Below, one piece after another: positions 27,216 to 54,091 of a DNA stretch of 64,000 bases. Within the stretch, counting starts at the first letter, position 1. Every line of letters starts with the position of its first letter. The position numbers and the translations under genes were made by a program. The DNA comes from a virus, in the IMG/VR virus record IMGVR_UViG_3300045256_000753, positions 37,638-101,637 of that record. One strand, given 5' to 3'. Under the pieces are notes generated by a model, which was not told the origin of the DNA, made no database searches, and worked only from the letters and a program-made list of their open reading frames with translations.

Positions 27216-27929
27216 TCAGACCGGGACGATGAGGTTCGAGTTCGCAGCGAAGCGGAGCGAGTAGCCCTTGCCCGGGCCACCGCTCGCCGACGTGGGCGCG
27301 AGACCCGTGTCGATGAACTCGCCGTACTGCGAGATGCCGTCGATGATGTCGGTGACGGTGACGGAGGAGTTCTCCGCGACCATCGCCGCATCCGACGTGA
27401 ACGAGGCGCTGTACGAGTTGAGCCAGCAACCCTCGAAGAACGTGAGCAGAGCGCGCGGCGTCACGATCGGGTTGTCGGCCGACGTCGGACCGTTGGTCAC
27501 CGTCGCCTGAATCGAGGTGCCGTTCGGATCTTGCAGGACCGCGATCTCCGAGAAGACGAGTTCTTGCTTGATGTCGAATGGCCAGCGGTGGTGACGGAGC
27601 GAACGAGCGAGGCCGTCGATGCCGCCCTTGTAGCCGAGGACCTGGAACAGGTTCGCGGTGTAGAGCAGCGTCTTGTTGAGGGTGAGCGTCATCGGCTCGG
27701 TGACGGACGGAACGAGTTCCGCGATCTGGTCACCGAAACCCACCCCGCGCACCGGGTCGATCGTACGCGACTCGTCGAAGCCGAACTCCGAGATGACGCC
27801 GATCTGCTGGAAGGCTTGCGCGTTGGTCGCGTAGCCGTAGACCTTGTTCTTTTGAGAGACCGCCGCCCTCGTGTTGGGGGCAGTCCCCATACGGTAGATG
27901 TAGTTGGCGGTCGAGACGTTGCTCGGCAT
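27216..27929 (-). CDS. Tail tube protein
   Basis: IGVISEF...ESRTIDPVRGVGFGDQIAELVP...PFDIK...FEGCWLNSYS resembles contractile-tail tube proteins; precedes chaperones and tape measure. Confidence 0.8.
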   Translation of the reverse strand: MPSNVSTANYIYRMGTAPNTRAAVSQKNKVYGYATNAQAFQQIGVISEFGFDESRTIDPVRGVGFGDQIAELVPSVTEPMTLTLNKTLLYTANLFQVLGYKGGIDGLARSLRHHRWPFDIKQELVFSEIAVLQDPNGTSIQATVTNGPTSADNPIVTPRALLTFFEGCWLNSYSASFTSDAAMVAENSSVTVTDIIDGISQYGEFIDTGLAPTSASGGPGKGYSLRFAANSNLIVPV

Positions 27930-27947: not shown

Positions 27948-28784
27948 TCAGACCTTTGCGCTCGCGAACATGGCGTGAAGGTGTGACGACTTCTCCCCGA
28001 GCTTCGAGAGCGCGGTCTTGGCTTCCGGCTCCTTGAACTTGGGGTGGCTGACGATGAGGTTCACGTTGCTCGCGATCTTGTGCAGATCGCCCTTCGCGCG
28101 GGCAACGTCGAATTTCTTGCCGGCGAGAACGAGCTGGTCGATCTTCTCCTCGGTCATGGTGACCTGGGCGAGGATCGCGTTCGCCATCTTGGCGTGCTCG
28201 TCCGAAGCCGTCATCGAGCGGGCACTCTGGCCGCTCGGGAGCTTCTCCGGGAGTCCGTAGTAGGACGAATTCTGGCTCTGGTTGCCGTAGACCGAGGGAC
28301 GACGCAGCCAGGCAACGAGATCGTTGAGGCGATCGATGTCGTCCTTCATCGACTGGGCCGAGATCGAGCCCGCACCAGCCTCTTTTGCGTGCTGCTGGAG
28401 GTTGGCGATCTGAGCCTCGATGCGAGCCACCTGGTTCGCAATCGCATCCTTCGTGAACTGTTCCGCGTCAGCCATGGTCCTGCCTTGCCTGTGTGAAGGG
28501 GTTCGATTTGACGGGAGAATAAGTGGAATAGAGCGACCAGACGACCACCTGGCTCGGTGGGGCTTGAGAAGCTCCCACATTCGCTCCAGATCGACCGTCA
28601 ACATCGATTCCCCCTCGGCCAAAAAGGTGTCCAGCGTCTGTTTTGCGGACCTGGACCCCACCGCCAGCTCGGTCACAAACTTGAGGACCGAGACGGACCC
28701 GAGCATGTACTTGACCCCATCGGGGGTCCGTACCCAATCGCTAAGCCCATCCGTACCAACGGTGACGAGCGCCTTTTGGGCCAT
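27948..28784 (-). CDS. Hypothetical protein (278 aa), possible internal start at MADAEQ
   Basis: Clean ORF; helical C-terminal half; GCAGGACC precedes an internal ATG. Confidence 0.65.
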   Translation of the reverse strand: MAQKALVTVGTDGLSDWVRTPDGVKYMLGSVSVLKFVTELAVGSRSAKQTLDTFLAEGESMLTVDLERMWELLKPHRARWSSGRSIPLILPSNRTPSHRQGRTMADAEQFTKDAIANQVARIEAQIANLQQHAKEAGAGSISAQSMKDDIDRLNDLVAWLRRPSVYGNQSQNSSYYGLPEKLPSGQSARSMTASDEHAKMANAILAQVTMTEEKIDQLVLAGKKFDVARAKGDLHKIASNVNLIVSHPKFKEPEAKTALSKLGEKSSHLHAMFASAKV

Positions 28785-28808: not shown

Positions 28809-29645
28809 TTACACGCGGACGAGCACCTGGATCAGGTGGCTGCTCAAGATGGTCGTGCCGTCCTCCGGATACAGCCAAAGGCCATTCGTTTTCCAGCCGG
28901 GAAGCTCCCCCATGGCGGTTTCCATCTCGTTCAGGATCTTTGCCGCCATCTCCAAACGGAACGGCACATGGGGCCCCTTCCGCCCGATCAAGACATTTTG
29001 GCGCCCGTCGATGACGGGCCCAAAGAGAGCCCCACGGAGGTAGCCCCTACGGAAGAGGCTCTCCCACCCATCTTCGAACGAGCCCTTCGTCTCGGCAACA
29101 ACGAAGCCCTGACTCCCTGCATCGATCAACCACGGCTCGGGGGGTTCCTGGCCAAGGTGAGGAAGTTGGCCCGTCTCGATATAGTCCTTGATGAAGTCCA
29201 CGCAATTTTCCAACCGAGAATCGATCTCGGATTGGACAAGGCCGTTGGGAAATTGGGTCCGCAGGAATTTGAGGAGGCGTGACAGCTCCGGATCAACGTG
29301 AGCGTGCCCAATGATCCCTCGTCGGTGCACGAGATCGGTCGCGGCAACGAAAGCTGCCGTTGCCGGCATGTCGATGAAGCGCCTGTTGCTCGCCAACACG
29401 ATCGCCACGAGAGTGTCCACGTCCCGAATGCCTTTCGTCGCGAACACCGGCGGCATGGGCCGTCCCTGAATCAGATCGTCGAAGAAGCTTGTGAGGGCGC
29501 CTGGGTCTGCCCAACCGAACTCCTCACCGTGATGCTCGTAGACGTAGAGCGATGAGTCGCCCGTTTGTGCCCTTGAGGCACCCGTCTCGAAAGAGATCGC
29601 GTTCGGAACCACCCCGGATAGAGAATCATCGAGGATGATCTGCAT
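28809..29645 (-). CDS. DHH-phosphoesterase-like protein (divergent)
   Basis: YEHHG and IRDVDTLVA motifs, plus a C-terminal LNEME...GW pattern seen in DHH-like proteins. Confidence 0.45.
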   Translation of the reverse strand: MQIILDDSLSGVVPNAISFETGASRAQTGDSSLYVYEHHGEEFGWADPGALTSFFDDLIQGRPMPPVFATKGIRDVDTLVAIVLASNRRFIDMPATAAFVAATDLVHRRGIIGHAHVDPELSRLLKFLRTQFPNGLVQSEIDSRLENCVDFIKDYIETGQLPHLGQEPPEPWLIDAGSQGFVVAETKGSFEDGWESLFRRGYLRGALFGPVIDGRQNVLIGRKGPHVPFRLEMAAKILNEMETAMGELPGWKTNGLWLYPEDGTTILSSHLIQVLVRV

Positions 29646-29653
29646 GAGGGTGC

Positions 29654-31111
29654 TTACACCCGTGCCCTATGGACGTGAGGTCGTGGGAAGCTAGCGAGGT
29701 ATTCGGGGTGGATGCGAACGAGACGATTTTTGGTGTCCTCCCACGGAAGAACAGCCAAGTCCGATGGGGCTCCTCGGTGGTCTTGAGCCGCAACGTATGC
29801 TGCGAAGTTATCCCAGACAATGCGGGGGATTGGGATTGTTCCGTTCTCGTACCCCCGGATTACGGAGAGGGGTGTATCGAACAGGAGCGCCAGATCCTCC
29901 GGGTCCAATTGCACAGCTTGCCGTAGGAAGACCCATGTTTCCGGCGTAATCTGGCCCCAAGAGATCACGATGCTGGCAGCACGGAGCCTGGCGAGTTTCT
30001 TGTTCGTGTCTGCGAAGTACGTCTGCCCGCGTCGAGTTTTGACTCCGGGGATCAAGGCAACGAAGGTCGTGCCCGTATTCTCCATGGGGATGAAAAAGTC
30101 GAAGAAGCCCTTCGTTCCACGCGGCAGATCGTTAACGGTTGCGTAGAGTCGTGGCGCGGGCGTTTCGGCGATGTCGATCGCATCGCTTACGCGTATGTTG
30201 TAGGTGAAGCTTCCGCTGATCGCAACGTCGTCTGTGACCGAGACGGCATCCGAGATGAAGTAATTCCCGGAAAAGCTCTCAACACGAACGACGTCGGTGA
30301 CCCCCAGCGTGTCCGTGTTCCGACGAATGAAGTCCACCTGACGAGAACCGTCGTCGGTGGCGTTCATACTGTCTGTCAGGGCCCGACTATTGTCCGTGGA
30401 TGTCCGGAGTGCGTCCGTCGCGGAAAGGGCGTCTGTCGATGTGCGGTTGAACGTAGTGCTTCGGCTGACACTATCGAGGATCGTTGCGGTGTTCGCATCG
30501 GTCCTGGAGAAATGGGCCGTTCGCTGTGTCGAGTCCGTGACGGTGGCAGTATCTTGCTGCGGTCGGTTGAATTCCCTACCTGCGACGGCGCTGTCGGTGA
30601 CCGTCGCTGAATCAGTTGCACTTCGAGCGTACACTGCCGAAGTAAGAGTGTTGTCCGAAACGTCGAGATCTTCAGTGACCGAGATCTCGATACGCCCAGC
30701 AATTTGAATTGTGAGCGAATCCGTAATCGTGGCGCTGTCCGTTACCTTCTTGGCGTACTGCGCCGATAGGGCGAGGGCATCGGTAACAGACGGGCTGTCC
30801 GAAAGCTTCCGGTTGTACCCCAACGATGTCTTTGGGGTGTCGCTGACCGAAAAGCTGTCCGATGTGCTTCGGTTGAATTGCGAAGAGATCTTGGTGGTGT
30901 CCGTGAACGACGCGCTGTCCGTCGCCGCCCGGCTGTTTTGTGCGGCGATCTTGGTCGAATCCGTAACGGCTACGCTGTCCGATGCGAGCCGGTTGGCTTG
31001 CAATGATCGGGTCGTAGTGTCCGTAACAGAGACCGAATCGCTCAGAGAAACGCTATACGCTATCCCGAGCGCGAGATCTTGATTGAATAGGATCCAGACG
31101 CCACCGGGCAT
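29654..31111 (-). CDS. 20-aa Ser/Thr/Asp repeat protein fused to an MqsA-like HTH-XRE domain
   Basis: Roughly 14 repeats of R..(S/T)DS..VTD; C-terminal FLRQAVQLDPEDLALLFDTPLSVIRGYENG is HTH-XRE-like. Confidence 0.7.
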   Translation of the reverse strand: MPGGVWILFNQDLALGIAYSVSLSDSVSVTDTTTRSLQANRLASDSVAVTDSTKIAAQNSRAATDSASFTDTTKISSQFNRSTSDSFSVSDTPKTSLGYNRKLSDSPSVTDALALSAQYAKKVTDSATITDSLTIQIAGRIEISVTEDLDVSDNTLTSAVYARSATDSATVTDSAVAGREFNRPQQDTATVTDSTQRTAHFSRTDANTATILDSVSRSTTFNRTSTDALSATDALRTSTDNSRALTDSMNATDDGSRQVDFIRRNTDTLGVTDVVRVESFSGNYFISDAVSVTDDVAISGSFTYNIRVSDAIDIAETPAPRLYATVNDLPRGTKGFFDFFIPMENTGTTFVALIPGVKTRRGQTYFADTNKKLARLRAASIVISWGQITPETWVFLRQAVQLDPEDLALLFDTPLSVIRGYENGTIPIPRIVWDNFAAYVAAQDHRGAPSDLAVLPWEDTKNRLVRIHPEYLASFPRPHVHRARV

Positions 31112-31193: not shown

Positions 31194-33566
31194 TCATTCG
31201 AAGTCATCAAACCAAATGAAGAAGCGCGTGGAATTGTGGGTCGTGATCTGAGATACGAAGTCCGAAGGCGTTGAGATGCTTTCGGAAATCGTACGCGACC
31301 CAATGTACCGGCGAACAACAGCATCGTTGATGCTGATGGCTTCACTAATCGTGCGGCTGCCAGAGAATGCACGAGTGATCGCATCAGAAATGCTGACCGA
31401 TTCCGAGATCGTTCGGCTCTGCACGAGAGCCCGAGCGATCGAATCGCTGGGTTGGGTGATGCTCTCACTGACAACCCGTGCTCCTGCGAACGCACGAGCT
31501 ACGGAGTCTGAAGGCGTCGTGATGCTCTCAGAGATCGAACGCGCCGAGACCACATGCCGCGCAATGGCGTCGGTGGGGGTCGTAACGCTCTCCGAGATGT
31601 TTCGGAATCCCGTGAACTGTCTGGAGATCGCGTCGCTGATCGAGATGGATTCGGCGAGCGCACGAGAGCCCGCGAAGGCTCGTGAGATTGCGTCGCTGAT
31701 AGAGACGCTCTCGGAAATGGTGCGCGCATTGACCGCTCGACGGGTGACCGCATCGCTAACGGAAACGGACTCTGCGATTGTTCGGGCACCAGCAAAGGCT
31801 CTCGCGACCGAATCGCTGACGGACACGGATTCGGAGACCGTCCGGGCGCCCGCAAAGGCTCGCGCAATTGCGTCTGAGGGTTGAGTGATGCTGTCGGAGA
31901 TTGTCCGAAGGAGCTGGGCCGTCCGGGCAATTGCATCGGAGGGCTGGGTAATGGATTCAGAAACGGTCCTCGCTCCAGCGAAGGCACGGGCAACTGCATC
32001 CGAGATGCTGACGGTTTCGCTTAGCGCACGTGACCCGGCAAAGGCACGCGTAAGGGCATCGGAGGGTTGCGTGATCGATTCAGCAACCGAACGGAAATCG
32101 GCGACCGCACGAGCAACGACATCACTCGGTTGTGTGATGGAGTCGGAGATGCTTCGAGAGCCGGCAAAGGCACGGGTGATGGCGTCCGAGATGCTGATGC
32201 TCTCGCTAATTGCTCGTATTGCTGCATACACACGAGCAACGGAATCGGTCGGTTGGGTGATCGAGTCGGAGATCGTTCGGTTCGCGGCAACGACCCGAAC
32301 GAGCGTATCACTAGGCTGCGTGATGGAGTCGGAGATGGCGCGAGAGGCAGCGATTGTTCGAGCAACGGCGTCCGAGACGCTGACGCTTTCACTGAGTGCA
32401 CGAGAGCCAGCAAAGGCACGCGTAAGGGCATCGGAGGGTTGCGTGATCGAGTCGGAGATCGTTCGGTTCGCGGCATCGACCCGAGCGATGGCATCACTCG
32501 GCTGCGTGATGGAGTCAGAGATCGTTCGACGCCCGACGAATTGCCGGGAGATAGCATCCGAGATCGATATCGATTCGGAAATGGCGCGTGCTCCGACGAA
32601 GACACGAGACACGCCTGTGACAGCAGAGGGGACGACAGCGAGGAGGGTCGTCGCCCAGTCGTCGTTGCCCGTGGAGGTCGCTTGGTAATTGCCGGTCGCG
32701 CCTTGGGAGGCGTTGGCGATCTTGCCGAGATTCCAGATCGTTCCGAATGACGCGAAGGTATTGTCTTGGCCAGGCCCCATGAAAGTAAACGATGGGAAGT
32801 CCGACGAGATCGTGGCGTTGTTGTCTCCCAGCCAGAACAAGAAAAGCCACTCGTTGGCCTTCGTGGTCGTGAGGCCGTTCGCTGTCAATGTGCTGGAGAA
32901 GCCGCTGTTTGTCGTTGGTGCTCCGGCGCCTGAGTCGATTGGACTGACCGAATCAGCCCCACGCAAACAAACACACGCGATACCAACTCCAAAAGTGCTC
33001 GTCGGAGATGTGCTGAATGTGTAGTTCGCAGCCGGGGAGCCGGAGAGCTGAAGGATGTAGACTGCCGAAGAGATCGCGTCATCGCCCCCGCTCGGGTGAT
33101 CGATGCGTGTACCGGAAACAAGTGTCGCGCCAGTTGGGGGCGTGACGGTCGCACCAGTTTGGTCATACCAGGCGACGAAGAAGACGAGAAGATCGCCGGA
33201 CTGAGCGCCCGCAGGAGTGCTTACGACACCTGGGTTTGTCGCCGTCGCAGCCGAAGTCGTCATCGACCCGACTTGCGTGATGGTCGAAGAGCCGCTGCCA
33301 TCCGTAGGAGTCGTAATCGACTCCGTGATGGTGCGCGCATAGTGAGCGATCCTCGTGATGGCATCGCTGATGGAAATCGATTCGCTGATGGTCCGTGCAC
33401 CAACGAACCGACGTGCGATGGCATCCGAGATCGAGATCGACTCGGTAATCGTTCGGGCGCCGACAAATACTCGTGAGCTTACCGAATCGGACGGAGTGGT
33501 GATGGACTCCGGGATCGATCTTGTGTAAGACTGCGCGCCACCTAGAAGAGCGAGTAGGAGCGACAT
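31194..33566 (-). CDS. 20/21-aa repeat fibre protein with an inserted globular beta domain (790 aa)
   Basis: About 26 repeats of RTISESISISDAITRAFAGS / RTISDSITQPSDAIARxxxxx; ~220-aa insert (GAQSGDLLVFFV...YTFS). Confidence 0.8.
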   Translation of the reverse strand: MSLLLALLGGAQSYTRSIPESITTPSDSVSSRVFVGARTITESISISDAIARRFVGARTISESISISDAITRIAHYARTITESITTPTDGSGSSTITQVGSMTTSAATATNPGVVSTPAGAQSGDLLVFFVAWYDQTGATVTPPTGATLVSGTRIDHPSGGDDAISSAVYILQLSGSPAANYTFSTSPTSTFGVGIACVCLRGADSVSPIDSGAGAPTTNSGFSSTLTANGLTTTKANEWLFLFWLGDNNATISSDFPSFTFMGPGQDNTFASFGTIWNLGKIANASQGATGNYQATSTGNDDWATTLLAVVPSAVTGVSRVFVGARAISESISISDAISRQFVGRRTISDSITQPSDAIARVDAANRTISDSITQPSDALTRAFAGSRALSESVSVSDAVARTIAASRAISDSITQPSDTLVRVVAANRTISDSITQPTDSVARVYAAIRAISESISISDAITRAFAGSRSISDSITQPSDVVARAVADFRSVAESITQPSDALTRAFAGSRALSETVSISDAVARAFAGARTVSESITQPSDAIARTAQLLRTISDSITQPSDAIARAFAGARTVSESVSVSDSVARAFAGARTIAESVSVSDAVTRRAVNARTISESVSISDAISRAFAGSRALAESISISDAISRQFTGFRNISESVTTPTDAIARHVVSARSISESITTPSDSVARAFAGARVVSESITQPSDSIARALVQSRTISESVSISDAITRAFSGSRTISEAISINDAVVRRYIGSRTISESISTPSDFVSQITTHNSTRFFIWFDDFE

Positions 33567-40177: not shown

Positions 40178-40668
40178 GTCACCCGTGCCGTGTAGGTGAT
40201 GCGGAGCTTGTCGGCTGTCGTCTTGTTGACCGCCGTGAAGGTGCTGCGAGACAGGATCGACCCACCAGGGCTCGTGTGCTGGTTGGCGAGAATGACCTCT
40301 TTGATGTTCGTCGCCGACTTCGTGCCCGGACCGCTGGGGTAGCTGATGATCCATTGCATCGAACGGGTGCCCGCGAGAAGGGACTTCGAGTCCACCGTCT
40401 TGAGGGTCCCGGTGATCGGTGTCGTCAGGTTCGTCTGTCCGGAGTTCGCCGCCTGAGAAGACGTCCCGATGCGCATGAAGTTCCACGACTTGCTGTTCAA
40501 GCCGGACGACATGCGCCAGATCTGACGCTTGCCCGTGTTGACGATGAGATTCGGACTCCGGCGATACTCGATGACCTCCGGGCCGTTCTTTCCGTCTCGG
40601 ATGACTTCGATCTCGAACCATCCGCCCATGTCATCGATGGTCTCTGTAACGGCCTTGGGCGCGCTCAT
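40174..40668 (-). CDS. Tail-collar/fibre subunit-like protein (164 aa)
   Basis: NLIVNTG...MRIGTS...QTNL...IKEVIL...SRSTFTAVNKT..DKLRITYT, a common phage structural family. Confidence 0.65.
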   Translation of the reverse strand: MSAPKAVTETIDDMGGWFEIEVIRDGKNGPEVIEYRRSPNLIVNTGKRQIWRMSSGLNSKSWNFMRIGTSSQAANSGQTNLTTPITGTLKTVDSKSLLAGTRSMQWIISYPSGPGTKSATNIKEVILANQHTSPGGSILSRSTFTAVNKTTADKLRITYTARVT

Positions 40669-42452
40669 GTCGATATCTCCTGTTTGATCAATGCAATGTT
40701 GTTGGTGGCCTCCTCTACAGCTTCTTTGGGAGAACCCTCAGGCAGAAGTTCAAGGACCCTTGTGGCCCAGTGCAGAGCGCGCGGTGCGTCCCCCAAGGCG
40801 GAGTAACACATCGCCAACCGTTGAGCTGGGATGTAGCTGTAGAAACTCAGATCGATCCACCAAAGCGTGAATGGGGGGTGCCCGATCATGGTGGACGCAT
40901 AGGTATAAAACTGGAGAGCTTCCTCGTACTTCTCCGCGTCAAAGGCGAGATCCCCAAGCCACACCCAATGGTCCGTGCGACTCCAATCGTCCCGCACACA
41001 GTCGAGTAGAATCTCTCGTGCTTCCGCGTACTCTCCGCGACCCGACAACATCTTCGCCAAGATGAGTCGCGTCTGGTAACGCATCGGGCCATTCTCGCGA
41101 TGGACCGCCAAGAACTCTTTGAGATACTTAATGGCGCGGTTCTCGTCATACTCGCGCCACTCGCTCCCAAGATACCAAAGGCTCAGGTGGCTGTTGTTCG
41201 CCATCCAGTCTTCGAGGAGCGTCTTCCGATTCTGAATTTTTCGCTGACCCTTGCGAGCCAGTTCTCGTTCATGGTCGCGTTCGTGCAATGTCTTCACTTG
41301 GGGAAGACGGATGACGTACGCCTTCTCCGGGAAATGGAGATCGTTGTGCGTGGCCCGCTGGAAGTAGATGGTGTCCGGCTGATTGCGGAACAACCACGGA
41401 TACCCCCACTGCTGGCCTTGTCCCGTGCGCAGCACGAATCCAACAGAGGCTTCCTTGGGTAGAAGCTCTCCAAGGCGCAGAAGCGTGTCTTTCCCCTGCC
41501 ACAGGCGCTCGTGGCCTTCCGTCATGAACACCCAGTCGCCCGAACAACGTCGGATGCACTGGTTGCGTGCATGCGAGAAGTGAAACCCGCCTTCGGGAAC
41601 CTCTTCTCCCGGGGGCCCGCGCAGCTCCGTGAGATCGAACACGATGTCCGCGTACTTCTCCGCGATCTCTCTCGTGTTGTCCGTCGTTCGCGGATCAATG
41701 CCGATGACGATCTCATCGGCGATACCCGAAAACGAAGCGAGGACGTTCTCGATGTCCTTGCCCTCGTCACGCACCGGCATCGTCATGCTCATCTTGAAGT
41801 TGTTCGGTTTTGGCAGGTTGCAGACTGCCAATAGGAAAGCCGGCTGCATCCTCGGGTCGGCTTTCGGTCCGAGCACCTCGACCCTGACGTCCGTGAAAAA
41901 TCTTTGCAGGTATCGCTTGAACTCGATGGCCGTGAACTTGCGCGTATGCTGCGGTTCTTCGTCGGGCCCGAGGCGATCGTTTGGAACCGAGAAGAACGCA
42001 CACGTGCACTTCGACGCGACGTTCATGAGCGTGTCTCGGGCGCGATCCGAGAGGTGCTCCAACGTTTCTGTCGAGACCATCACGAGAGGCCCGTCGTCTT
42101 CGCTACGGAGGAAGTCGAGCGGCAGAGGATCTTCGAGATTCACCTGGTGGGTTGTGAATCCGTTGCTCCTCGCTTGGGCGAGGGCTTCCGCACTGTGATC
42201 GAGGACTTCCGGAAAGCAGCAACCCTCATCACGAAGACGTGCTGCAAGAATTCCGACGCCGCCCCCAACATCGATCACACGAGCGTTCCGAGGAATCAGC
42301 TCGATGATGCGATCGTAGACCTCTTCGAGAGCACTCTTGCGCCAGCTCCCTGTGCCCTCGGCCGCCCAAAGACGATCCCACTCTGTTGAGGAGTTCGCGA
42401 TTCGCGCGGCTTCCTCAACATTCTGCGGGCGAAATGCGTCCGAGTTCATCAT
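40665..42452 (-). CDS. SAM methyltransferase - GT2 glycosyltransferase - TPR fusion
   Basis: VIDVGGGVG and ETLEHL (class I MTase); MPVRDE...DEIVIGID..TTDNT...FSHARN...GDWVF (GT2); helical TPR-like C-terminus. Confidence 0.85.
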   Translation of the reverse strand: MMNSDAFRPQNVEEAARIANSSTEWDRLWAAEGTGSWRKSALEEVYDRIIELIPRNARVIDVGGGVGILAARLRDEGCCFPEVLDHSAEALAQARSNGFTTHQVNLEDPLPLDFLRSEDDGPLVMVSTETLEHLSDRARDTLMNVASKCTCAFFSVPNDRLGPDEEPQHTRKFTAIEFKRYLQRFFTDVRVEVLGPKADPRMQPAFLLAVCNLPKPNNFKMSMTMPVRDEGKDIENVLASFSGIADEIVIGIDPRTTDNTREIAEKYADIVFDLTELRGPPGEEVPEGGFHFSHARNQCIRRCSGDWVFMTEGHERLWQGKDTLLRLGELLPKEASVGFVLRTGQGQQWGYPWLFRNQPDTIYFQRATHNDLHFPEKAYVIRLPQVKTLHERDHERELARKGQRKIQNRKTLLEDWMANNSHLSLWYLGSEWREYDENRAIKYLKEFLAVHRENGPMRYQTRLILAKMLSGRGEYAEAREILLDCVRDDWSRTDHWVWLGDLAFDAEKYEEALQFYTYASTMIGHPPFTLWWIDLSFYSYIPAQRLAMCYSALGDAPRALHWATRVLELLPEGSPKEAVEEATNNIALIKQEIST

Positions 42453-42669: not shown

Positions 42670-45600
42670 TCAGATGTTCGCGCGGAGATTGAACGTCAGG
42701 ACCAGGTACTCCAACGGGAAGATCGGAGCGTAGAAGGCCTGGAAGTTCAGGATGGTCGGGTCGTTCGGGTCGATCTGCGCGCTGAGGCCGGTGAAGGCTG
42801 CGACGATCTCGGCCTGAACGAGGCTCTTGAAGAGACCCGTCATCGTCACGACGACCTCGGTCGTACGCGACTGGAGGAACTTGGTTCCGACGAACGAGTC
42901 GAGGATCGTACGCGACTGCTGTTGCACGAAGTCGCTGATCTGCGTCACCGTGGGCAGGCGCGTGAGGATCGACGCCATGTTGGTCGTCAAGCCCTGGCGG
43001 ATACGGAGGAACCCGTTGCCGAGGTCTTCGAGGAGGGTGATGCCAGCGACCGCCGTCTGCGTGGCCTCGACCGGATCGAGGATGCGCGGGATGCTGGTGA
43101 AGCCCTGGAGACGGCGCCGCGTGTACGGCGTCGCCACGTCCACCGAGGGAGCGACCACGGCGCCAGCAACTGCCGCACCGAAGAACGAGCCGTCGATGAT
43201 CGACTGGAACGACTGCCCGGTCTCGTCCGTGAGGGTCACGACCGAGCTGTCCGGGTAGAAGGCCACGATACGCGAGGACACGAGGGACTTCGCGATCGTC
43301 TGCGCGCTGGTCGGCGACGTTCCGCTTGCGAACCCGATGAAGCCCATGCGCTCCGCCTGGTTGCGGATGTTCGACTGGACTTCGCAGTGGTTCGTGAGGA
43401 ACGAGTAGACCGCCGTGCTCGTCGCCAACGGGACCAGGATGTCCGGCTTCACGTTGCCCGGAAGCGGCGTGGCCAGGCCTGCGATGGCGTTGATGAACGA
43501 CTGGTCGCTCGCCTGGTTCGTGTTCGGAACCTTTAGCACCTGCGTGATGCCGATGAGGACGGCGCCGTTCAGGATGGCGAGGTAGGCCGCGAGGCTGACG
43601 CGGTTTTCCGGGCTCGTCGCACCGAAGTTGGCTTCGATGGTCTTGAGGGTCTGGAAGATGCGCGTCGAGAAGTCCTGCTTCTTGTAGCGGTACGAGATGA
43701 AGTAGAAGTCACCGACCGCAGGCTCCAAACCGCCCGGGTTGAACGTCTGGATGACGCCCGTGTCGTTGACTGCCACGTTGACCGTGTTCGACACGATCAT
43801 CTCGATGCCCGGGATGGAGAGGCGGGGCACGCTCGGGTCCACGTGGAACGTGGGGCTGACGAGCAACGTGAAGTTGCCTGCCGGCGTGTAGCCGCCCGTC
43901 GAAGCCGGAAGGATGGTGAACCGGAGGCCGGTCACCGCGTCCGTGTACGTCTGGCCCGGGACACCGGTACCAGCCGAACCGTTCGGCGACGACGACGAGA
44001 CCGTGTACTGGTCGTGTGCGTCTTCACCGACATCCCCATCAACGCCCGGCGTGAGGCCGATGCCCGTCGAGGTGTTGAACGCCGAGTTCGCCGAAGCGGC
44101 GAAGCCGATGCTCGACCCCGATGCGCCCGTCGTGAGCGACTCGATGGTGATGTAGTTCTTGCTGTTGAGGGCATCGACGTAGGCCACGGCGCCGGCAGCG
44201 AAGCCGCCCGTCGCCATGAGTTCGTCCACGACTTCTTGAGCAGTGACGAGCGCCTGGCTCGCGAACTGGTTCTGGGTGAACCCGAGGACCGCGTTTGCCG
44301 ATCCGTTCTGGATGAGGATCGACGAGTTCGCGTCGTTGGTCAGGCTGGTGAGGCGCACGTGGTTGGCGTTGCCGAGCGTGCCCGACGACGGAACGCCGCC
44401 GAGGCCCGAAACTGCGCCGATGGCCGTCACGACCGATGCCGCCGAAACCGCCGCGCCTGCCGGGAGCGTCACCGAGTAGTCGGTGCCGTTCACGCGAAGG
44501 AGCAACTTGTCGTTGAGGCCCGCCGTGATGTTGTACGGACCCGCAAGGCCGCTGAGCAGCGTTGCCGGCTTGTTGATCGCGCCGGGGGTGCCCGCCGCCG
44601 CCTGGAAGGTCTTGAAGCCGAGCGTGTGCTCGACCGTGCCCTGGAGGATCTTCACCGTCGAGACTGCATCGAAGCCGCCCGGGAGTGCCGCCGGCGTCGA
44701 GTAGCTCTTGATGATGAAGATGATGTCGCCCGTGCCCGGTCCGCCGATTTGGACCGACGAGCAGAGGTTGTTCGGGGCCGTTCCGACGAACGCGGCGTTC
44801 GCATCGATCCCGGTGTTGATCTCGCTGACGATCTGAGCCGGCGTGCGGTTACCCGCCGTCAGGTTGATCGTCGCGACGGTCACACCGTCGATCTGGACGT
44901 TGAACGCGTTGTTCGGCGAAGCCGGGATCGTGATCTTGCCGGTGTCGGGTCCCGTTTGAATCGGGGTGACGTGACCGCCGACGAGGAAGCCCTTCGCCTG
45001 GTTGGACAGCGTGGTCGTTTGCGAGCCGCCGTTGACGACGGTGACCCACGTTGCCGAGTACGGAGCGAAGAAGCTGTAGGGCTCCGCATTGCGGTTCGTG
45101 AATGCCGCGTTTTCCGGTGCGCTCTGGCTGAACGTGATCGTGACGATCTCGGCAACCGGCGTTCCGTTGCCCGTGTGGAACGCATCCGGGATGTTCTCCA
45201 CGCCGCGCGGCCACTGGACCGTCTGGGCGAAGCCGGACTTGGTTCCGAAGCGGACCTCGAAGAGGTTCGCGTTGCGGAGCGACGAGAAGACCGTGTACTG
45301 GCCCGAGCCGATCGGTCCAGGGACCGTGCAGGTCAGGATGTACGTGTCATCGACGATGTTGTTGTACCAGAAGGTCGCGAACACCGTGTAGTCCGGGGGA
45401 ACCGGACGCTGGAGGGTGATGACGCGATTCGGACCATCGACGGCGATCACGGGGATCGCGGCGCGGCCGAGAGCGTCACGGAGGTTGCGGCCCGCGTAAA
45501 CCGTCACGAGGTCCGGACGGTTCGACACGAGGTCCATGCGACCGTTCGTGACCGAGTTGTAGAGCGGCAAGCCCAGGGGCGTGTCGCGTCCGTTTCCGGT

Positions 45601-46971
45601 CGTCGGAATCTCGGGCAGGAGGAACTGCGTCGCCGAGACCGTGGCCGGGATCGTCGTGGTGTCCGTCACGGGCGTGCATGCCGCGAGGAACATCTTGTCA
45701 TCGACGAGCGTCGTGCCGATCTGGCCGCCGAGACCCGAAACGCCATCGAACGGCGCGGCACCGGGGCTGGTCTTCGTCGCTTGCGTGACGACACCGGTAC
45801 CCCAGTTGACGAGCGAGACATCCGGAGTCGGATTCGCGATCGTGAAGTCCGCACCCTGGATGTAGTCGTTGCGCTGCGGCGAGATGCCGGCGCGAATGAC
45901 CTGCGTGACGTTCGAGTTCGGGAGGTAGTCGAACGTTTGCTGCCAGGTGTTGGCGAAGTATTGGATGCTGACCGTGCTGCCCGGAGCCGGCGCGAACGGC
46001 AGCGTGACGACGCCGTTCTTGCCATCGACCGCCGAAGCAACGACCTGCACGTTGTTGACCTTCACGACGACCTTGGTCGGGTCCGTGGTCGTGATGCCGC
46101 CGCCGCTGCCATCCACGATCGGGATGTTGAAGAGACGGAACTGGGCGTTGCGCGACGTCTGCGCACCGGACGAGAAGCCGAGCGGGCCGTTCGCCGTGCC
46201 GGAGCCGATCACGATCGATTGCGTGGCGGTGAGCAGGATGTGGTTGAGTCCCGCGTTGTCCACGAAGACGGTCGCGAGGAGGTTCGGGATCGCCGCCGCC
46301 ATGATGGCGGAAACGACGCCGGCCGCCGTGAGCGAGCCCGGGGGCAGGGTGACCGTCGCCTGGACGCCGTTGACCGTCAGAACGAAGTTGTCGTTCGATC
46401 CGGCCGTGATGAGGAAGGGCTCGAAGCCCGGGCTCGTGAGGGTCGCGTTCGTCGAAGTGACCTGGCCCGAAACGTCGTCCGTGAAGCTCGTGTCCCCACG
46501 GTGGAAGTGGTAGGTCGCGCGAACCGTGTCGGTCGGCTGCGTCGGGATCTGGAGTCCGACGAGACCCTTGGCGCCTTGCACCGAGGCAACGGCCACCGGG
46601 GTCCCGTTGACGGTCACCGTCACCGAGCGGGTGTCGTTCGTCGTGCGGCCGATTCCCTGGCCGTCCACGATCGGGAAGTTCTTGACGCGGAACTGCGTGA
46701 GCTGACCGTTCTGCGCACCGAGAACGAGGTTGTTGGGGTTGGTCGCATCGACCACCCAAGAGAGGCTGACGTCCTCGTTGACGATCAACTCGTCCACCGT
46801 GGCCGAGCTGCCACGAACGAGTTCGATGTCGTCTTGCTCCAGCTCCTCTTGGCCGACGCCAATGATGACCGGGATGCGAAGACCAGCCACCAAGTTGGAG
46901 ACGTTGGCCTCCGTCAAGGTGCGGGTGTAAACGCCGGGCGGAACGTACGTGACAAACGGGCCGAGAGCCAT
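42670..46971 (-). CDS. Tail sheath protein with multiple inserted domains (1433 aa)
   Basis: N-terminal YVPPGVYTRT; C-terminal IRQGLTT...FVGTK...YAPIFPLEYLVLTF sheath signature. Confidence 0.92.
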   Translation of the reverse strand: MALGPFVTYVPPGVYTRTLTEANVSNLVAGLRIPVIIGVGQEELEQDDIELVRGSSATVDELIVNEDVSLSWVVDATNPNNLVLGAQNGQLTQFRVKNFPIVDGQGIGRTTNDTRSVTVTVNGTPVAVASVQGAKGLVGLQIPTQPTDTVRATYHFHRGDTSFTDDVSGQVTSTNATLTSPGFEPFLITAGSNDNFVLTVNGVQATVTLPPGSLTAAGVVSAIMAAAIPNLLATVFVDNAGLNHILLTATQSIVIGSGTANGPLGFSSGAQTSRNAQFRLFNIPIVDGSGGGITTTDPTKVVVKVNNVQVVASAVDGKNGVVTLPFAPAPGSTVSIQYFANTWQQTFDYLPNSNVTQVIRAGISPQRNDYIQGADFTIANPTPDVSLVNWGTGVVTQATKTSPGAAPFDGVSGLGGQIGTTLVDDKMFLAACTPVTDTTTIPATVSATQFLLPEIPTTGNGRDTPLGLPLYNSVTNGRMDLVSNRPDLVTVYAGRNLRDALGRAAIPVIAVDGPNRVITLQRPVPPDYTVFATFWYNNIVDDTYILTCTVPGPIGSGQYTVFSSLRNANLFEVRFGTKSGFAQTVQWPRGVENIPDAFHTGNGTPVAEIVTITFSQSAPENAAFTNRNAEPYSFFAPYSATWVTVVNGGSQTTTLSNQAKGFLVGGHVTPIQTGPDTGKITIPASPNNAFNVQIDGVTVATINLTAGNRTPAQIVSEINTGIDANAAFVGTAPNNLCSSVQIGGPGTGDIIFIIKSYSTPAALPGGFDAVSTVKILQGTVEHTLGFKTFQAAAGTPGAINKPATLLSGLAGPYNITAGLNDKLLLRVNGTDYSVTLPAGAAVSAASVVTAIGAVSGLGGVPSSGTLGNANHVRLTSLTNDANSSILIQNGSANAVLGFTQNQFASQALVTAQEVVDELMATGGFAAGAVAYVDALNSKNYITIESLTTGASGSSIGFAASANSAFNTSTGIGLTPGVDGDVGEDAHDQYTVSSSSPNGSAGTGVPGQTYTDAVTGLRFTILPASTGGYTPAGNFTLLVSPTFHVDPSVPRLSIPGIEMIVSNTVNVAVNDTGVIQTFNPGGLEPAVGDFYFISYRYKKQDFSTRIFQTLKTIEANFGATSPENRVSLAAYLAILNGAVLIGITQVLKVPNTNQASDQSFINAIAGLATPLPGNVKPDILVPLATSTAVYSFLTNHCEVQSNIRNQAERMGFIGFASGTSPTSAQTIAKSLVSSRIVAFYPDSSVVTLTDETGQSFQSIIDGSFFGAAVAGAVVAPSVDVATPYTRRRLQGFTSIPRILDPVEATQTAVAGITLLEDLGNGFLRIRQGLTTNMASILTRLPTVTQISDFVQQQSRTILDSFVGTKFLQSRTTEVVVTMTGLFKSLVQAEIVAAFTGLSAQIDPNDPTILNFQAFYAPIFPLEYLVLTFNLRANI

Positions 46972-48769: not shown

Positions 48770-49789
48770 TTACCCCGCGTGCTCTTCGATGGCCAAAACG
48801 AGAAGGCCCTCGGCAACGGCCGTCATGGGGTCCTTCGCGCTTCGGACCTCGCTGATTTGGATGGGGAAGCCCTTCTTCTTCACCGCCTCGAACTCCTCCT
48901 TGAACAGGTCGAGGAATCCGCCCGCCTTGGTGGTTCCGCCCGAGACGACGAACGGGATCGGGTTCGGCAGATCGAGCGACGTTTGGACCTTGCGGAACTG
49001 GATCGCGATGTTGTCGAGGCAGTATTTGACGAGCGACCGGATGTAGAGCGCGATGGCTTCTTCGTCGCGGTTCTTGGGGGCCATCAGATCGACGCCCTTT
49101 TCCTTGATCGCGCACATGCGGGCCGTCGTCGAGCCCATGGCCTTCGCCGCGTGCGTGTCGATCCAGTCACCCCCACGGGCGACGGAGAATTCGAGGCCGC
49201 ATACCGTCTGATAAGCGAGCGCGACGTTGCACATGCCGGAGCCGAAGCTCACCGACAGGCCCGAGAAGTTCTCTTCCGCGCACTGGCTGTAGATGATGGC
49301 CATCGCCTCGTTCATCGGATGCGGCTCGTACCCGTGCTCCGAGATGATTTTGCGGAAGACCTCGGTGTGGTAGATGACGTCCTGGTCCGGGTCATCGATC
49401 GGTGCGGCCGGAACGCTGTAGAAGCAGTGCTCCCCCTCTTTGACGGGCTTGCCGAGCACGTGCTTGACGAGGAGGCTGAGAATCTGCTGGGCCTCGATCT
49501 CGCCGGCGGCGATGACACCGCGCGAGAGCGGCCGACGCAGCTCCTTCTTGAAGAGGTTCACCATGTTGAGCGCCGAATCGCCGATGACGATCAAACGGTC
49601 GCCCTTCTCGACGTAATCGACCTTCGAGAGGCGAAGCGTCTTCTTCGCCTCCACATCGAGATCGATGAACGCATCGCGGACACGGCTGCTCACAACCTTG
49701 TCCTTCTCGTTCATGCGTGCGCTCACGATGTTCATCGTGCCCACGTCGAGTCCAACGGCTGGTTTGAATGTGATTTGATTCGCGCTCAT
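48770..49789 (-). CDS. Actin-like ATPase (MreB/ParM superfamily)
   Basis: Phosphate-1 GLDVGT, connect NEAMA, phosphate-2 SFGSGMCN, adenosine VSGGTT and terminal PMTAVAEG. Confidence 0.85.
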   Translation of the reverse strand: MSANQITFKPAVGLDVGTMNIVSARMNEKDKVVSSRVRDAFIDLDVEAKKTLRLSKVDYVEKGDRLIVIGDSALNMVNLFKKELRRPLSRGVIAAGEIEAQQILSLLVKHVLGKPVKEGEHCFYSVPAAPIDDPDQDVIYHTEVFRKIISEHGYEPHPMNEAMAIIYSQCAEENFSGLSVSFGSGMCNVALAYQTVCGLEFSVARGGDWIDTHAAKAMGSTTARMCAIKEKGVDLMAPKNRDEEAIALYIRSLVKYCLDNIAIQFRKVQTSLDLPNPIPFVVSGGTTKAGGFLDLFKEEFEAVKKKGFPIQISEVRSAKDPMTAVAEGLLVLAIEEHAG

Positions 49790-53137: not shown

Positions 53138-53186
53138 GCACCTTTCCCATGGACCGATCCCATAAAGGGAAAGTGCGGCTTACGGC

Positions 53187-53543
53187 TCAACCCGTTGATC
53201 CGCCTTGGGTATCCGCTGGCGGCGTCGCCGGAGCGGTCGGAGGCTTCGCCGGCTGCTCGATGGGGCCGATGAGGGTGATGAGGCCGGTCTGCGCGTTGAT
53301 GTTGGCCGGAGTGTTGGGAGCAAGACCGCGCTCCATGAGGCATCGCTCGAAGAGGCGGTACCGCTCTTCATCGACCTTGCGGGCTGCCGCAAGAAGTTTG
53401 ATCTCCTCGTTTTTGATGTCGAGAAGCTGGTTGCCGATTTCCGAGCGGACGCCCTCCAGCTCCCCGAGCTTGTCGAGGGTCTCTTTGCCGACCGGATCGT
53501 TCAAGGTCAGCTTCGTCGTTGTCGTGTTCGATTCAGATCCCAT
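53187..53543 (-). CDS. Hypothetical coiled-coil protein
   Basis: GGGAG RBS before MGSE; exact start uncertain. Confidence 0.55.
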   Translation of the reverse strand: MGSESNTTTTKLTLNDPVGKETLDKLGELEGVRSEIGNQLLDIKNEEIKLLAAARKVDEERYRLFERCLMERGLAPNTPANINAQTGLITLIGPIEQPAKPPTAPATPPADTQGGSTG

Positions 53544-53591
53544 TTGCATCTCCCGTGTGTTGGGTCGCAAACGGGCTACACCACAAGAGCT

Positions 53592-53951
53592 TCACTTCGG
53601 CTCGGGTTCGTACTTTCTCGCCAGGCAGCGAAGAAAAACCTCGAACAGCATCGGATCGATGTCGTGCTTCTTCAAGCGCGCCCGCCGCACCGCCTCACCC
53701 TGTGAATCCGGGCAGGCCGCGTCGTGGTGATCCAAGCGCTTCCGGCAATACTGGCACCGCTCGACCTTGATGCCTTCGCTGGTGCGTTCGTTCCGCGTCT
53801 TCTTGCGACGCGCGATCATCATGCTCAACGGATTCGGGCGATTCTGCCAGTCCGCACACGACTCCCTGTGGTGCTTCATCTGCGAATACTTGTCGCAGGT
53901 GAACCCGCAAAGGCAGGGATGAATGCGCGGCTCTGCCGCATCGATCGTCAT
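53592..53951 (-). CDS. Cys/His-rich zinc-finger protein (119 aa)
   Basis: CLCG...HRESC and CQYC...HDAAC motifs. Confidence 0.6.
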   Translation of the reverse strand: MTIDAAEPRIHPCLCGFTCDKYSQMKHHRESCADWQNRPNPLSMMIARRKKTRNERTSEGIKVERCQYCRKRLDHHDAACPDSQGEAVRRARLKKHDIDPMLFEVFLRCLARKYEPEPK

Positions 53952-54091
53952 TGGGAACCGCCGCTCAGATGACTTGCTCGGGTCTCATCACATAGGATTT
54001 ACACCAACGGATTACCGTTCCAGACACCACGGTACAGCTCACAGGGCGCCCGTTATACCGTAACGATCCCGCTATGTTATGAACGACTATT

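What the first reader, a model, noticed from the sequence alone, without database searches (positions are those of the whole stretch)
29654..31111. MqsA-like antitoxin domain fused to a structural repeat protein
Seen: after ~14 20-aa Ser/Thr/Asp repeats the protein switches (about 29700-30110) to TTFVALIPGVKTRRGQTYF...LARLRAASIVISWGQITPETWVFLRQAVQLDPEDLALLFDTPLSVIRGYENGTIPIPR. Established: MqsA/YgiT-type antitoxins consist of a zinc ribbon (VPAxxCxxCGExY) followed by an HTH-XRE domain. Here the ribbon spacing is kept but the cysteines are lost, and no adjacent toxin gene is recognisable. Inference: a captured host antitoxin, either reused as a dimerising tip domain of a fibre or acting as a virion-borne decoy against MqsR-type abortive infection.
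Basis: partly seen in the sequence, partly recalled or inferred. Interest (0 to 1): 0.75.

Follow-up and report, generated by a model that had tools for sequence, protein, structure and literature searches.

The report
MqsA-like HTH fused to repeat protein
The end of this giant-phage repeat protein really is a zinc-less relative of the MqsA antitoxin fold, but it is an old phage gene, normally free-standing beside a DHH-like enzyme gene, that was fused to the repeats once, not a freshly captured host antitoxin.

Summary
ORF 29654-31111 (-) encodes 485 aa: about 15 acidic 20-aa Ser/Thr/Asp repeats, then a 150-aa module. The module is modelled with confidence (pLDDT 89) as two long strands, a five-turn helix and a five-helix XRE HTH. 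Its best PDB match is E. coli MqsA, though weakly. Its family profile aligns over 123 columns with zinc-ribbon YgiT/MqsA proteins (hhalign 97.5%), and the second CxxC knuckle has lost its cysteines.

The module is the positional ortholog of a free-standing 160-200-aa gene in related megaphages (the tube protein has distant matches in Tunturi_5 and phage G). In every locus found, that gene lies next to a DHH/DHHA1-fold gene between the tail sheath and tube genes. No member was found in 185,000 prokaryotic genomes, by a narrow pattern search.

The fusion to repeats is real. At least five diverged metagenomic relatives share it, they form one clade, and contigs bridge the junction. It probably arose once.

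No zinc site, MqsR-like gene or basic recognition helix was found, so nothing supports a decoy or fibre-tip role. The function is inferred: a partner-binding or dimerising accessory of the DHH-like protein. A local regulator is the main rival.

The scan had not noted this module on other DNA.

The parts
29654..31111 (-). Whole ORF, 485 aa (P0001): repeat region plus MqsA-fold module
   Evidence: Logan contigs cover it with 0 differences; one contig spans the whole stretch.
30152..31054 (-). About 15 diverged 20-aa acidic Ser/Thr/Asp repeats (aa ~20-320). They are homologous to the repeats of the fused relatives and of the 790-aa neighbour.
   Evidence: lag-20 autocorrelation; blastp E 4e-16 to 8e-11; net charge -14. 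No DNA-level tandem repeat. The nearest ESM-Atlas clusters by features are all viral.
30014..30115 (-). Two long beta-strands plus a short strand (aa 333-366). This is the counterpart of the MqsA-N ribbon, with the second Cys knuckle degenerated to KTRRGQ.
   Evidence: AF2 model; hhalign to Zn-ribbon protein P0044; Foldseek 3gn5
29957..30010 (-). Five-turn helix (aa 368-385) carrying the family's most conserved motif (RAASTLAHxG; here RAASIVISWG)
29783..29944 (-). Five-helix XRE-type HTH (aa 390-443). The helix 2-3 region has net charge -3.
29657..29782 (-). C-terminal extension (aa 444-485) with the conserved RxxRI strand. It lacks the Cys/Pro-rich tail of the free-standing orthologs.
29655..29660 (-). 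GGTGTA box overlapping the P0001 stop codon, 15 nt before the start of the DHH-like gene. It is conserved upstream of that gene in most related loci, whether or not the MqsA-like gene is present.
28809..29645 (-). Co-conserved neighbour, 278 aa, with a DHH/DHHA1-like two-domain fold. It starts 8 nt after the P0001 stop.
   Evidence: AF2 pLDDT 91.9. Foldseek top hits are all DHH-family enzymes. VIA Z 10.4 over 182 aa; DHHA1 part Z about 9, rmsd 2.5-2.7. 52 IMG/VR loci.
31194..33566 (-). 790-aa paralogous repeat protein without the module

Best explanation
P0001 is a genuine two-part phage protein. Residues 1 to about 325 are acidic 20-aa Ser/Thr/Asp repeats of a family seen so far mainly in viruses. 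Residues about 333-475 are a cysteine-less member of the MqsA/YgiT fold: two long strands, a five-turn helix, a five-helix XRE HTH, and a C-terminal strand predicted after the HTH.

Shown here:
- The module descends from a free-standing 160-200-aa megaphage gene. In every locus found, that gene lies beside a DHH/DHHA1-fold gene in the accessory island between the tail sheath and tube genes.
- In the sister lineage (L027) the order is sheath, then module, then DHH-like gene.
- In this phage a 13-kb cassette (methyltransferase/glycosyltransferase plus repeat proteins) lies between sheath and module, and its last repeat gene is fused in frame onto the module.
- The fused forms make one clade, so one fusion event is the simplest reading.

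Inferred:
- The module has no zinc site, no MqsR-like neighbour and no basic recognition helix. It therefore most likely acts through protein contacts: HTH-mediated dimerisation as in MqsA, and binding of a partner, most plausibly the DHH-like protein. Acting as an MqsR antidote or a classical operator-binding repressor seems less likely.
- The fusion would tether that partner-binding unit to the repeat protein.
For: Fold and homology: structure; XRE profiles; hhalign 97.5% and 97.3% to PF15731-annotated zinc-ribbon proteins; only NCBIfam hit is TIGR03830, weak; look-alikes are HTH_3 and YgiT-family proteins, including phage ones.

Family: the exhaustive phmmer search gave 26 true hits. Most are free-standing and 5 are fused to the same kind of repeats.

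Synteny: sheath - (UvrD-like - X) - module - DHH-like - 278 aa - tube in L004, L006, L007, L008 and L010, with a divergent variant in L002. Identities are 67% (sheath) and 70-84% (tube). L027 shows sheath - module - DHH-like.

Pairing: every module locus found has the DHH-like gene adjacent. 27 of 52 DHH-like loci carry the module, 15 co-directional and 12 divergent.

Single origin of the fusion: 97/81; SH-aLRT 92.

Junction: the free-standing N-terminus (PIVxLExD..G..GLFDF) aligns with the junction of the fused forms. Contigs bridge it.

Acidic HTH: helix 2-3 carries net charge -1 to -5 in all but one phage cluster (P0003, +1). Most members have pI 4.2-5.9. MqsA's recognition helix is positively charged and invariant (PMC2791442).
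Against: No direct evidence that the module binds the DHH-like protein. 25 of 52 DHH-like loci lack the module, so the enzyme does not need it. Adjacency, including the divergent arrangement, also fits a local transcription regulator, and polar but non-basic recognition helices can bind DNA. The similarity of the N-terminal subdomain to MqsA-N rests on hhalign and a weak Foldseek alignment (E 0.014, TM 0.33-0.40). Rigid-body alignment superposed only the HTH. All structures are predictions. Whether the repeat part is virion-associated is unknown.
Confidence: 0.5

Rival explanations
1. The module is a DNA-binding local regulator (Aca-, C-protein- or antitoxin-like) that represses the adjacent DHH-like gene or operon. 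The N-terminal repeats are an appendage that MqsA-type geometry tolerates.
For: XRE fold with Aca2, Aca10, Aca1, HigA2, C.EcoT38IS and 434 Cro as best matches. It is always next to one gene, co-directionally upstream or divergent, which is the classical regulator layout. CACC-N8/9-GGTG inverted repeats lie in three divergent intergenic regions.
Against: Helix 2-3 is acidic or neutral in nearly all phage members and lacks the S-R pair kept in the zinc-ribbon relatives. The GGTGTA box occurs upstream of the DHH-like gene in most loci whether or not the module gene is present, so it is not a module-specific operator. In co-directional loci the gene overlaps the upstream ORF, with no promoter region of its own. 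A long-lived fusion to 115-630 aa of acidic repeats is unusual for a repressor.
Confidence: 0.25
2. Structural reading (first reader, option 1): the module is the distal or dimerising tip, or the attachment domain, of a virion fibre made of the repeats.
For: The gene lies in a tail-gene region and ends a cassette of repeat-rich proteins. The nearest look-alikes of the repeat part by features are all viral. MqsA HTH domains dimerise.
Against: In most relatives the module is a free-standing small acidic protein among non-structural genes (UvrD-like helicase, DHH-like). No PHROG or Pfam structural family matches. Distant kin Tunturi_5 has no homolog between sheath and tube. There are no virion data.
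Confidence: 0.15
3. Decoy reading (first reader, option 2): a captured host MqsA that neutralises MqsR-type abortive-infection toxins.
For: Fold-level and profile-level kinship with MqsA/YgiT proteins. BFVD look-alikes are annotated as antitoxin or YgiT family.
Against: The four zinc cysteines, invariant in MqsA, are absent. P0002 scores 11 bits against the 61.8-bit cut-off of TIGR03830. The family is viral or metagenomic only, with no hit in prokaryotic genomes by pattern. It is separated from the zinc-ribbon relatives by long branches. The conserved partner is a DHH-like gene.
Confidence: 0.05
4. The fusion is an assembly or frameshift artefact.
For: The record is a single metagenomic assembly. 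All runs that hold it may come from the source sample.
Against: At least five diverged relatives (264-785 aa) have the same repeat-plus-module architecture with a conserved junction. Separate Logan contigs from three runs bridge position 30139 with no differences or indels. There are no DNA tandem repeats to mis-assemble and no internal start or terminator at the junction.
Confidence: 0.02

Closest known systems
E. coli MqsA (YgiT; PDB 3GN5; Pfam PF15731, TIGR03830)
   Same: Domain order and secondary structure: two long twisted strands, a five-turn helix, then a five-helix XRE HTH. It is the top Foldseek PDB hit. The HTH superposes at Z 5.2-5.3, rmsd 2.0-3.0 A.
   Different: No zinc cysteines, no MqsR partner, an acidic rather than basic recognition helix, an extra C-terminal strand and tail, and a compact rather than hinged model. 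It scores far below the family cut-offs.
Zinc-ribbon YgiT-family HTH proteins from metagenomes (P0044, P0030) and phages (BFVD: Lactococcus phage AM4, Siphoviridae sp.)
   Same: Homologous over the hairpin, long helix, HTH and the C-terminal PRxxRL strand (hhalign 97.5%, 123 columns).
   Different: They keep CxxC...CxxCGE and the S-R recognition-helix pair. They sit outside the phage clade on a long branch.
XRE-family HTH regulators (Aca2, Aca10, Aca1, HigA2, SO3848/YdiL, 434 Cro, C-proteins)
   Same: Five-helix fold and the W/Y-E-x-G signature. Profile hits have E 5e-4 to 1e-3.
   Different: This module has an N-terminal beta subdomain, an acidic HTH and, here, a C-terminal position on a 325-aa repeat protein. 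DNA binding is unproven.
DHH/DHHA1 phosphoesterases (NrnA, TM1595 PDE, Rv2837c/CnpB, GdpP, NrN, PAP phosphatase, RecJ): for the partner gene
   Same: Two-domain fold. Z 10.4 over 182 aa; DHHA1 part Z about 9.
   Different: No Pfam DHH or DHHA1 hit. The invariant residues (Y-E/N-HHG, DxDT, DxxHRxG, RK) are not in the canonical motif order, so activity is unknown.

Membership tests
MqsA antitoxin (PF15731 / TIGR03830) | Four zinc-coordinating cysteines (Cys3, Cys6, Cys37, Cys40), invariant in MqsA proteins (PMC2791442) | tested here: not met
   The second knuckle CTRCGE aligns with (gap)TRRGQ, and no N-terminal CxxC is present.
MqsA antitoxin (PF15731 / TIGR03830) | N-domain of two long twisted beta-strands buttressed by a five-turn helix | tested here: met
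   The AF2 model has strands 9-19 and 24-34 and helix 44-61, pLDDT about 95. Foldseek aligns 118-124 columns to 3gn5. This is a prediction only, and there is no rigid-body superposition of this part.
MqsA antitoxin (PF15731 / TIGR03830) | C-terminal five-helix HTH-XRE domain | tested here: met
   Z 5.2-6.4, rmsd 1.1-3.0 A to XRE HTHs including MqsA-C. HTH_3 hits in 11 of 22 relatives.
MqsA antitoxin (PF15731 / TIGR03830) | Score above the curated family cut-off | tested here: not met
   TIGR03830 gives 11 bits against a 61.8-bit cut-off, E 0.27. There is no Pfam hit even at E 10.
MqsA antitoxin (PF15731 / TIGR03830) | Adjacent RelE-like MqsR toxin gene | tested here: inconclusive
   The neighbours are a DHH-like gene and a repeat-protein gene. 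PF15723 found nothing in the 101-kb record, but the control genomes did not ring above the cut-off, so the search is weak.
MqsA antitoxin (PF15731 / TIGR03830) | Positively charged, invariant DNA-recognition helix | tested here: not met
   Helix 2-3 has net charge -3 in P0001 and -1 to -5 in all but one phage cluster. The S-R pair of the zinc-ribbon relatives is replaced. DNA binding itself is not testable here.
XRE-family HTH (Pfam HTH_3 clan) | Five-helix bundle with a helix-turn-helix and profile similarity | tested here: met
   The family profile hits XRE proteins in the PDB (E 5e-4). All 50 top VIA-wide rows are XRE HTHs. P0002 alone has no Pfam hit.
Anti-CRISPR-associated (Aca) regulators | Encoded beside an anti-defence gene and represses its promoter | not testable with these tools
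   Only fold-level similarity to Aca2, Aca10 and Aca1. The function of the DHH-like neighbour is unknown.
Phage tail fibre / virion fibre proteins | Homology to a known fibre family, or presence in virions | tested here: inconclusive
   No Pfam, PHROG or PDB fibre match. Viral look-alikes only. No proteomics.
DHH/DHHA1 phosphoesterases (partner gene 28809-29645) | Two-domain DHH + DHHA1 fold | tested here: met
DHH/DHHA1 phosphoesterases (partner gene 28809-29645) | Canonical motifs (DxD, D, DHH, D; GGGH) | tested here: inconclusive
   Invariant His and Asp residues exist (HHG, DxDT, DxxHR, H116) but not in canonical form. No Pfam hit.

The most novel reading that the evidence does not exclude
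The MqsA-fold module is a docking unit for the DHH/DHHA1-like phosphoesterase. In the fused lineage it would anchor that enzyme to a fibrous, possibly virion-borne, repeat protein. A nucleotide-signal- or nanoRNA-degrading enzyme would then arrive with the phage particle and pre-empt cyclic-nucleotide-based defences (type III CRISPR, CBASS) in hot-spring mat hosts.
Probability: 0.07. Interest if true: 0.75.

Novelty: new variant of a known kind. Interest (0 to 1): 0.42.

Why it matters
It defines a phage-borne, zinc-less branch of the MqsA/YgiT fold: at least 26 clusters at 50% identity and 27 IMG/VR loci. It shows the fold being used outside a toxin-antitoxin pair, always beside a DHH-like gene in the tail region of megaphages. 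It also documents a long-lived fusion of an HTH-type module to a fibre-like repeat protein. If the module proves to be a protein-docking unit, it would be a clear case of an antitoxin or repressor fold turned into an adaptor. The UvrD-like - X - (module) - DHH-like island is a candidate accessory system of megaphages that is worth assaying. None of this yet answers a long-standing question.

Tried and rejected
- Pfam, PHROGs and PADLOC on P0001/P0002: nothing.
- phmmer of P0002 against PDB sequences: nothing.
- Word-indexed homolog search on residues 320-485: nothing. The exhaustive search was needed.
- Four multi-stretch hits (P0013, P0020, P0027, P0029) are unrelated tandem-repeat proteins.
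- tblastn against 50,697 phage records found nothing for P0001, the L002 module or the DHH-like protein.
- Single-protein scans of IMG/VR found nothing.
- The metagenome scan gave one false positive, L016.
- Two genome-contig scans found no relatives, but the patterns were narrow (RAASTLAHW and RAASTLA[HQ][MW]).
- MqsR (PF15723) in the own record: none, but the control was uninformative.
- UvrD (PF00580) in the own 101-kb record: none; the record is only 21% complete.
- No homolog of the upstream 'X' gene of relatives in this record.
- Tunturi_5 gp327 (162 aa, between sheath and tube) is unrelated (hhalign probability 0.1).
- No internal start, promoter or convincing terminator at the junction.
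- Operator test: GGTGTA is present upstream of the DHH-like gene with or without the module gene, so it is not a module-specific operator.
- No RNA holder was listed among the sequencing runs.
- VIA-align superposed only the HTH.
- PDB hits of the repeat region to designed helical repeats are compositional.
Full report
**The thing itself.** ORF 29654-31111 on the minus strand is open for 485 codons. All large ORFs of the window run on this strand. The window is the 3' 64 kb of a 101,637-bp IMG/VR virus record judged 21% complete. The sequence is held by hot-spring and microbial-mat metagenome runs.

From about residue 20 to 320 an S/T-D-S/T motif recurs every 20 residues, giving about 15 units. 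Identity autocorrelation peaks at lags 20 and 40, and the net charge is -14. The repeats are diverged at the DNA level, because Tandem Repeats Finder finds nothing inside this ORF. The last 161 residues (P0002 = window:29657-30139:-) are not repetitive.

**Is the C-terminus MqsA-like?** Direct family scans are almost silent. Pfam finds nothing even at E 10, and PHROGs and PADLOC find nothing. NCBIfam returns a single weak hit, which is the MqsA family model TIGR03830 on the HTH part (E 0.27, 11 bits against a cut-off of 61.8).

An exhaustive phmmer search of 1.8 billion representatives found 30 proteins at E <= 1e-3, of which 26 are true hits. With 21 of them as an alignment, AlphaFold2 gives a confident model (pLDDT 89, pTM 0.82). 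It has two long strands (9-19, 24-34), a short strand, an 18-residue helix (44-61), a five-helix bundle (66-119) and a late strand (140-143).

This matches the published description of MqsA. There the N-domain has two long twisted strands buttressed by a five-turn helix, with loops held by zinc on Cys3, Cys6, Cys37 and Cys40. A five-helix HTH-XRE domain follows, which dimerises and binds DNA through a positively charged, invariant helix (PMC2791442).

Foldseek against the PDB ranks full-length MqsA (3gn5) first, with 118-124 aligned columns, E 0.014 and probability 0.98. TM-scores are only 0.33-0.40 and rmsd exceeds 13 A. Rigid-body alignment superposes only the HTH part, with Z 5.2-6.4 and rmsd 1.1-3.0 A to Aca2, Aca10, SO3848, HigA2 and MqsA-C. 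In a Foldseek-independent sweep of 48,161 PDB representatives, all 50 best rows are XRE-type HTHs.

At the sequence level, the family profile hits XRE proteins in the PDB (E 5e-4 to 1e-3), and 11 of 22 relatives hit Pfam HTH_3. The key link uses a profile of nine core members that contains no zinc-ribbon protein (A2). It aligns with P0044, a 153-aa CxxC...CxxCGE protein annotated PF15731/YgiT, at 97.5% probability (E 7e-12) over 123 columns, from the hairpin to the C-terminal PRVVRL strand. The knuckle CTRCGE falls on -TRTGV, which is TRRGQ in P0001. P0030 gives 97.3%. BFVD look-alikes include phage proteins named YgiT family or antitoxin.

The N-terminal knuckle has no counterpart.

**The fusion is real and old.** Five hits (P0007 785 aa, P0010 446, P0011 371, P0012 403, P0018 264) carry the same module at the C-terminus of the same kind of repeats. 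The repeat regions are homologous to that of P0001 (E 4e-16 to 9e-11; 0.008 for the short P0018) and to the neighbouring 790-aa protein (8e-11). All have a 20-aa period or a related one, and net charges of -14 to -69.

The N-terminal residues of free-standing proteins (PIVxLExD...G..GLFDF) align with the junction of the fused ones. The whole small protein is therefore embedded in the fused form.

In trees of the module, the fused proteins form one clade nested inside the free-standing family. Two short, probably truncated entries (P0005, P0009) fall in the same clade. Support is 97/81 in the careful tree and SH-aLRT 92 in a 54-row quick tree. P0002 and P0018 have long branches.

Logan contigs from three runs bridge position 30139 without any difference. 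All may come from the source sample, so this is not independent support. No internal start, promoter or convincing terminator sits at the junction.

**Where the module comes from.** Pattern scans of IMG/VR with family alignments found the free-standing gene (163-200 aa, usually with a Cys/Pro-rich C-terminal tail) in viral contigs of up to 416 kb.

tblastn of the window's proteins shows clear synteny. In L004, L006, L007, L008 and L010 the order is:
- homolog of 42670-46971 (the 1,433-aa sheath-like protein, 61-67% identity),
- a UvrD-like helicase of about 1,170 aa (PF00580, 1e-42 to 1e-45),
- a small gene 'X',
- the module gene,
- homolog of 28809-29645 (39-44% identity),
- homolog of 27948-28784,
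- homolog of the tube-like 27216-27929 (69-84% identity), and so on.

P0001's module thus occupies exactly the slot of the free-standing gene. In the 416-kb record (L002) the neighbour is divergent and the helicase lies downstream.

Searching with the neighbour instead gave 52 IMG/VR loci, many on contigs of 200-529 kb. In 27 of them the module gene is adjacent, 15 co-directional upstream and 12 divergent. In 25 there is none within 3 kb, and in those inspected X or the helicase abuts the neighbour directly. Every module locus found has the neighbour.

The sister of the fused clade (P0003 with L026/L027) shows sheath, a 14-nt gap, the module and then the neighbour, with no helicase. This looks like the state before the 13-kb cassette of this window (40665-42452 methyltransferase-GT2-TPR, then repeat-rich proteins) was inserted and its last gene fused to the module.

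Two pattern scans of 185,579 prokaryotic species genomes found no member, though the patterns were narrow. The zinc-ribbon relatives lie across branches of 2.3-3.0 substitutions per site. By the tube protein, the lineage is distantly related to Tunturiibacter phage Tunturi_5 (46%) and Bacillus phage G gp180 (27%). Tunturi_5 has unrelated genes between sheath and tube. 'Captured host antitoxin' is therefore not supported.

**The neighbour.** The 278-aa protein has no Pfam hit. It folds confidently (pLDDT 91.9). Its best PDB matches are all DHH-family enzymes: family II pyrophosphatase, NrnA, the TM1595 phosphodiesterase, Rv2837c, GdpP, NrN, PAP phosphatase and RecJ. Foldseek E is about 1e-3. 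VIA gives Z 10.4 over 182 residues, and Z about 9 at 2.5-2.7 A for the DHHA1-like half.

Seven homologs share invariant FETG, Y-E/N-HHG, DxDT, DxxHRxG, H116 and RK. A metal-dependent phosphoesterase is plausible but unproven. It is not an MqsR/RelE-type toxin.

A GGTGTA box lies 12-30 nt before its start in most loci. In this window it overlaps the P0001 stop codon (29655-29660). It occurs with or without the module gene, so it is not evidence for a module-specific operator.

**How it most likely works.** Shown: the fold, the homology, the conserved pairing with the DHH-like gene, the probable single origin of the fusion and the intact junction.

Inferred: helix 2-3 of the HTH carries net charge -1 to -5 in all but one phage cluster (P0003, +1), and most members have pI 4.2-5.9. 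The S-R pair before the W-E-x-G turn, kept in the zinc-ribbon relatives, is replaced. This contrasts with the basic, invariant helix of MqsA. There is also no zinc site and no MqsR-like neighbour.

I therefore favour a protein-contact role: dimerisation through the HTH, and binding of a partner, most simply the DHH-like protein. The fusion would tether this unit to the repeat protein. I put this at about 0.5 for the whole statement. The identity and history parts are much firmer than the mechanism.

The main rival (0.25) is a local transcription regulator, which the adjacency patterns fit equally well. A structural fibre-tip role (0.15) and an MqsR decoy (0.05) have little support. An artefact is essentially excluded (0.02).

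**Limits.**
- All structures are predictions.
- The beta subdomain was not searched on its own.
- No RNA or proteome data bear on expression or virion presence.

Noticed in passing
L004:3827-9307, L006, L007, L008, L029-L072 (IMG/VR loci): A conserved non-structural island lies between the tail sheath and tube genes of many megaphage contigs. It holds a UvrD-like helicase of about 1,170 aa with a 300-aa unknown N-terminus, a small gene 'X' (120-300 aa, no Pfam hit), optionally the MqsA-like gene, and a DHH/DHHA1-like gene. A helicase with a RecJ-like fold nearby suggests a DNA-end-processing or anti-defence module.
   Followed up: partly
L059:2065-2973, L065:2132-2974, L056, L064; also the tails of free-standing module genes (e.g. 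L002:7971-8564): Many proteins of this island end in Cys-rich tails, such as (CEGG)n, CDGACGKTECTCGG or CPPxxCPC. Some free-standing MqsA-like proteins also start with CxxPC...C. These may be metal sites replacing the lost zinc ribbon. The fused clade lacks them.
   Followed up: no
window 29655-29660 and upstream of the DHH-like gene in about 36 of 41 distinct related loci: A conserved GGTGTA box lies shortly before the start of the DHH-like gene. It often doubles as the Val-stop end of the upstream ORF, and is present even in divergent arrangements. In L033, L035 and L037 it forms a CACC-N8/9-GGTG inverted repeat. Its meaning (promoter, operator for another factor, RNA signal) is unknown.
   Followed up: partly
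window 48770-49789 (-): A 339-aa protein matches Pfam Volactin (PF25216) end to end at E 1.9e-74, so an actin-fold protein lies among the neck and tail genes of this phage.
   Followed up: no
window 40665-42452 (-): A methyltransferase - GT2 glycosyltransferase - TPR protein heads the 13-kb cassette that replaces the UvrD-like/X genes of relatives (Pfam 2.7e-8, 2.4e-6).
   Followed up: no
L002:4754-7047 (+): In the 416-kb relative, the space between the sheath gene and the DHH-like gene holds four or five small paralogous ORFs that start M-D-x-L-R-W-K-T. Their function is unknown.
   Followed up: no
window 53138-54091: A stretch of about 950 nt has no long ORF on the coding strand and contains two GGTGTA boxes (53582, 54005).
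   Followed up: no
The genome search control for PF15723: The MqsR_toxin family search did not ring above its cut-off in any control genome, E. coli included. Negative results with this short family are therefore not informative.
   Followed up: no
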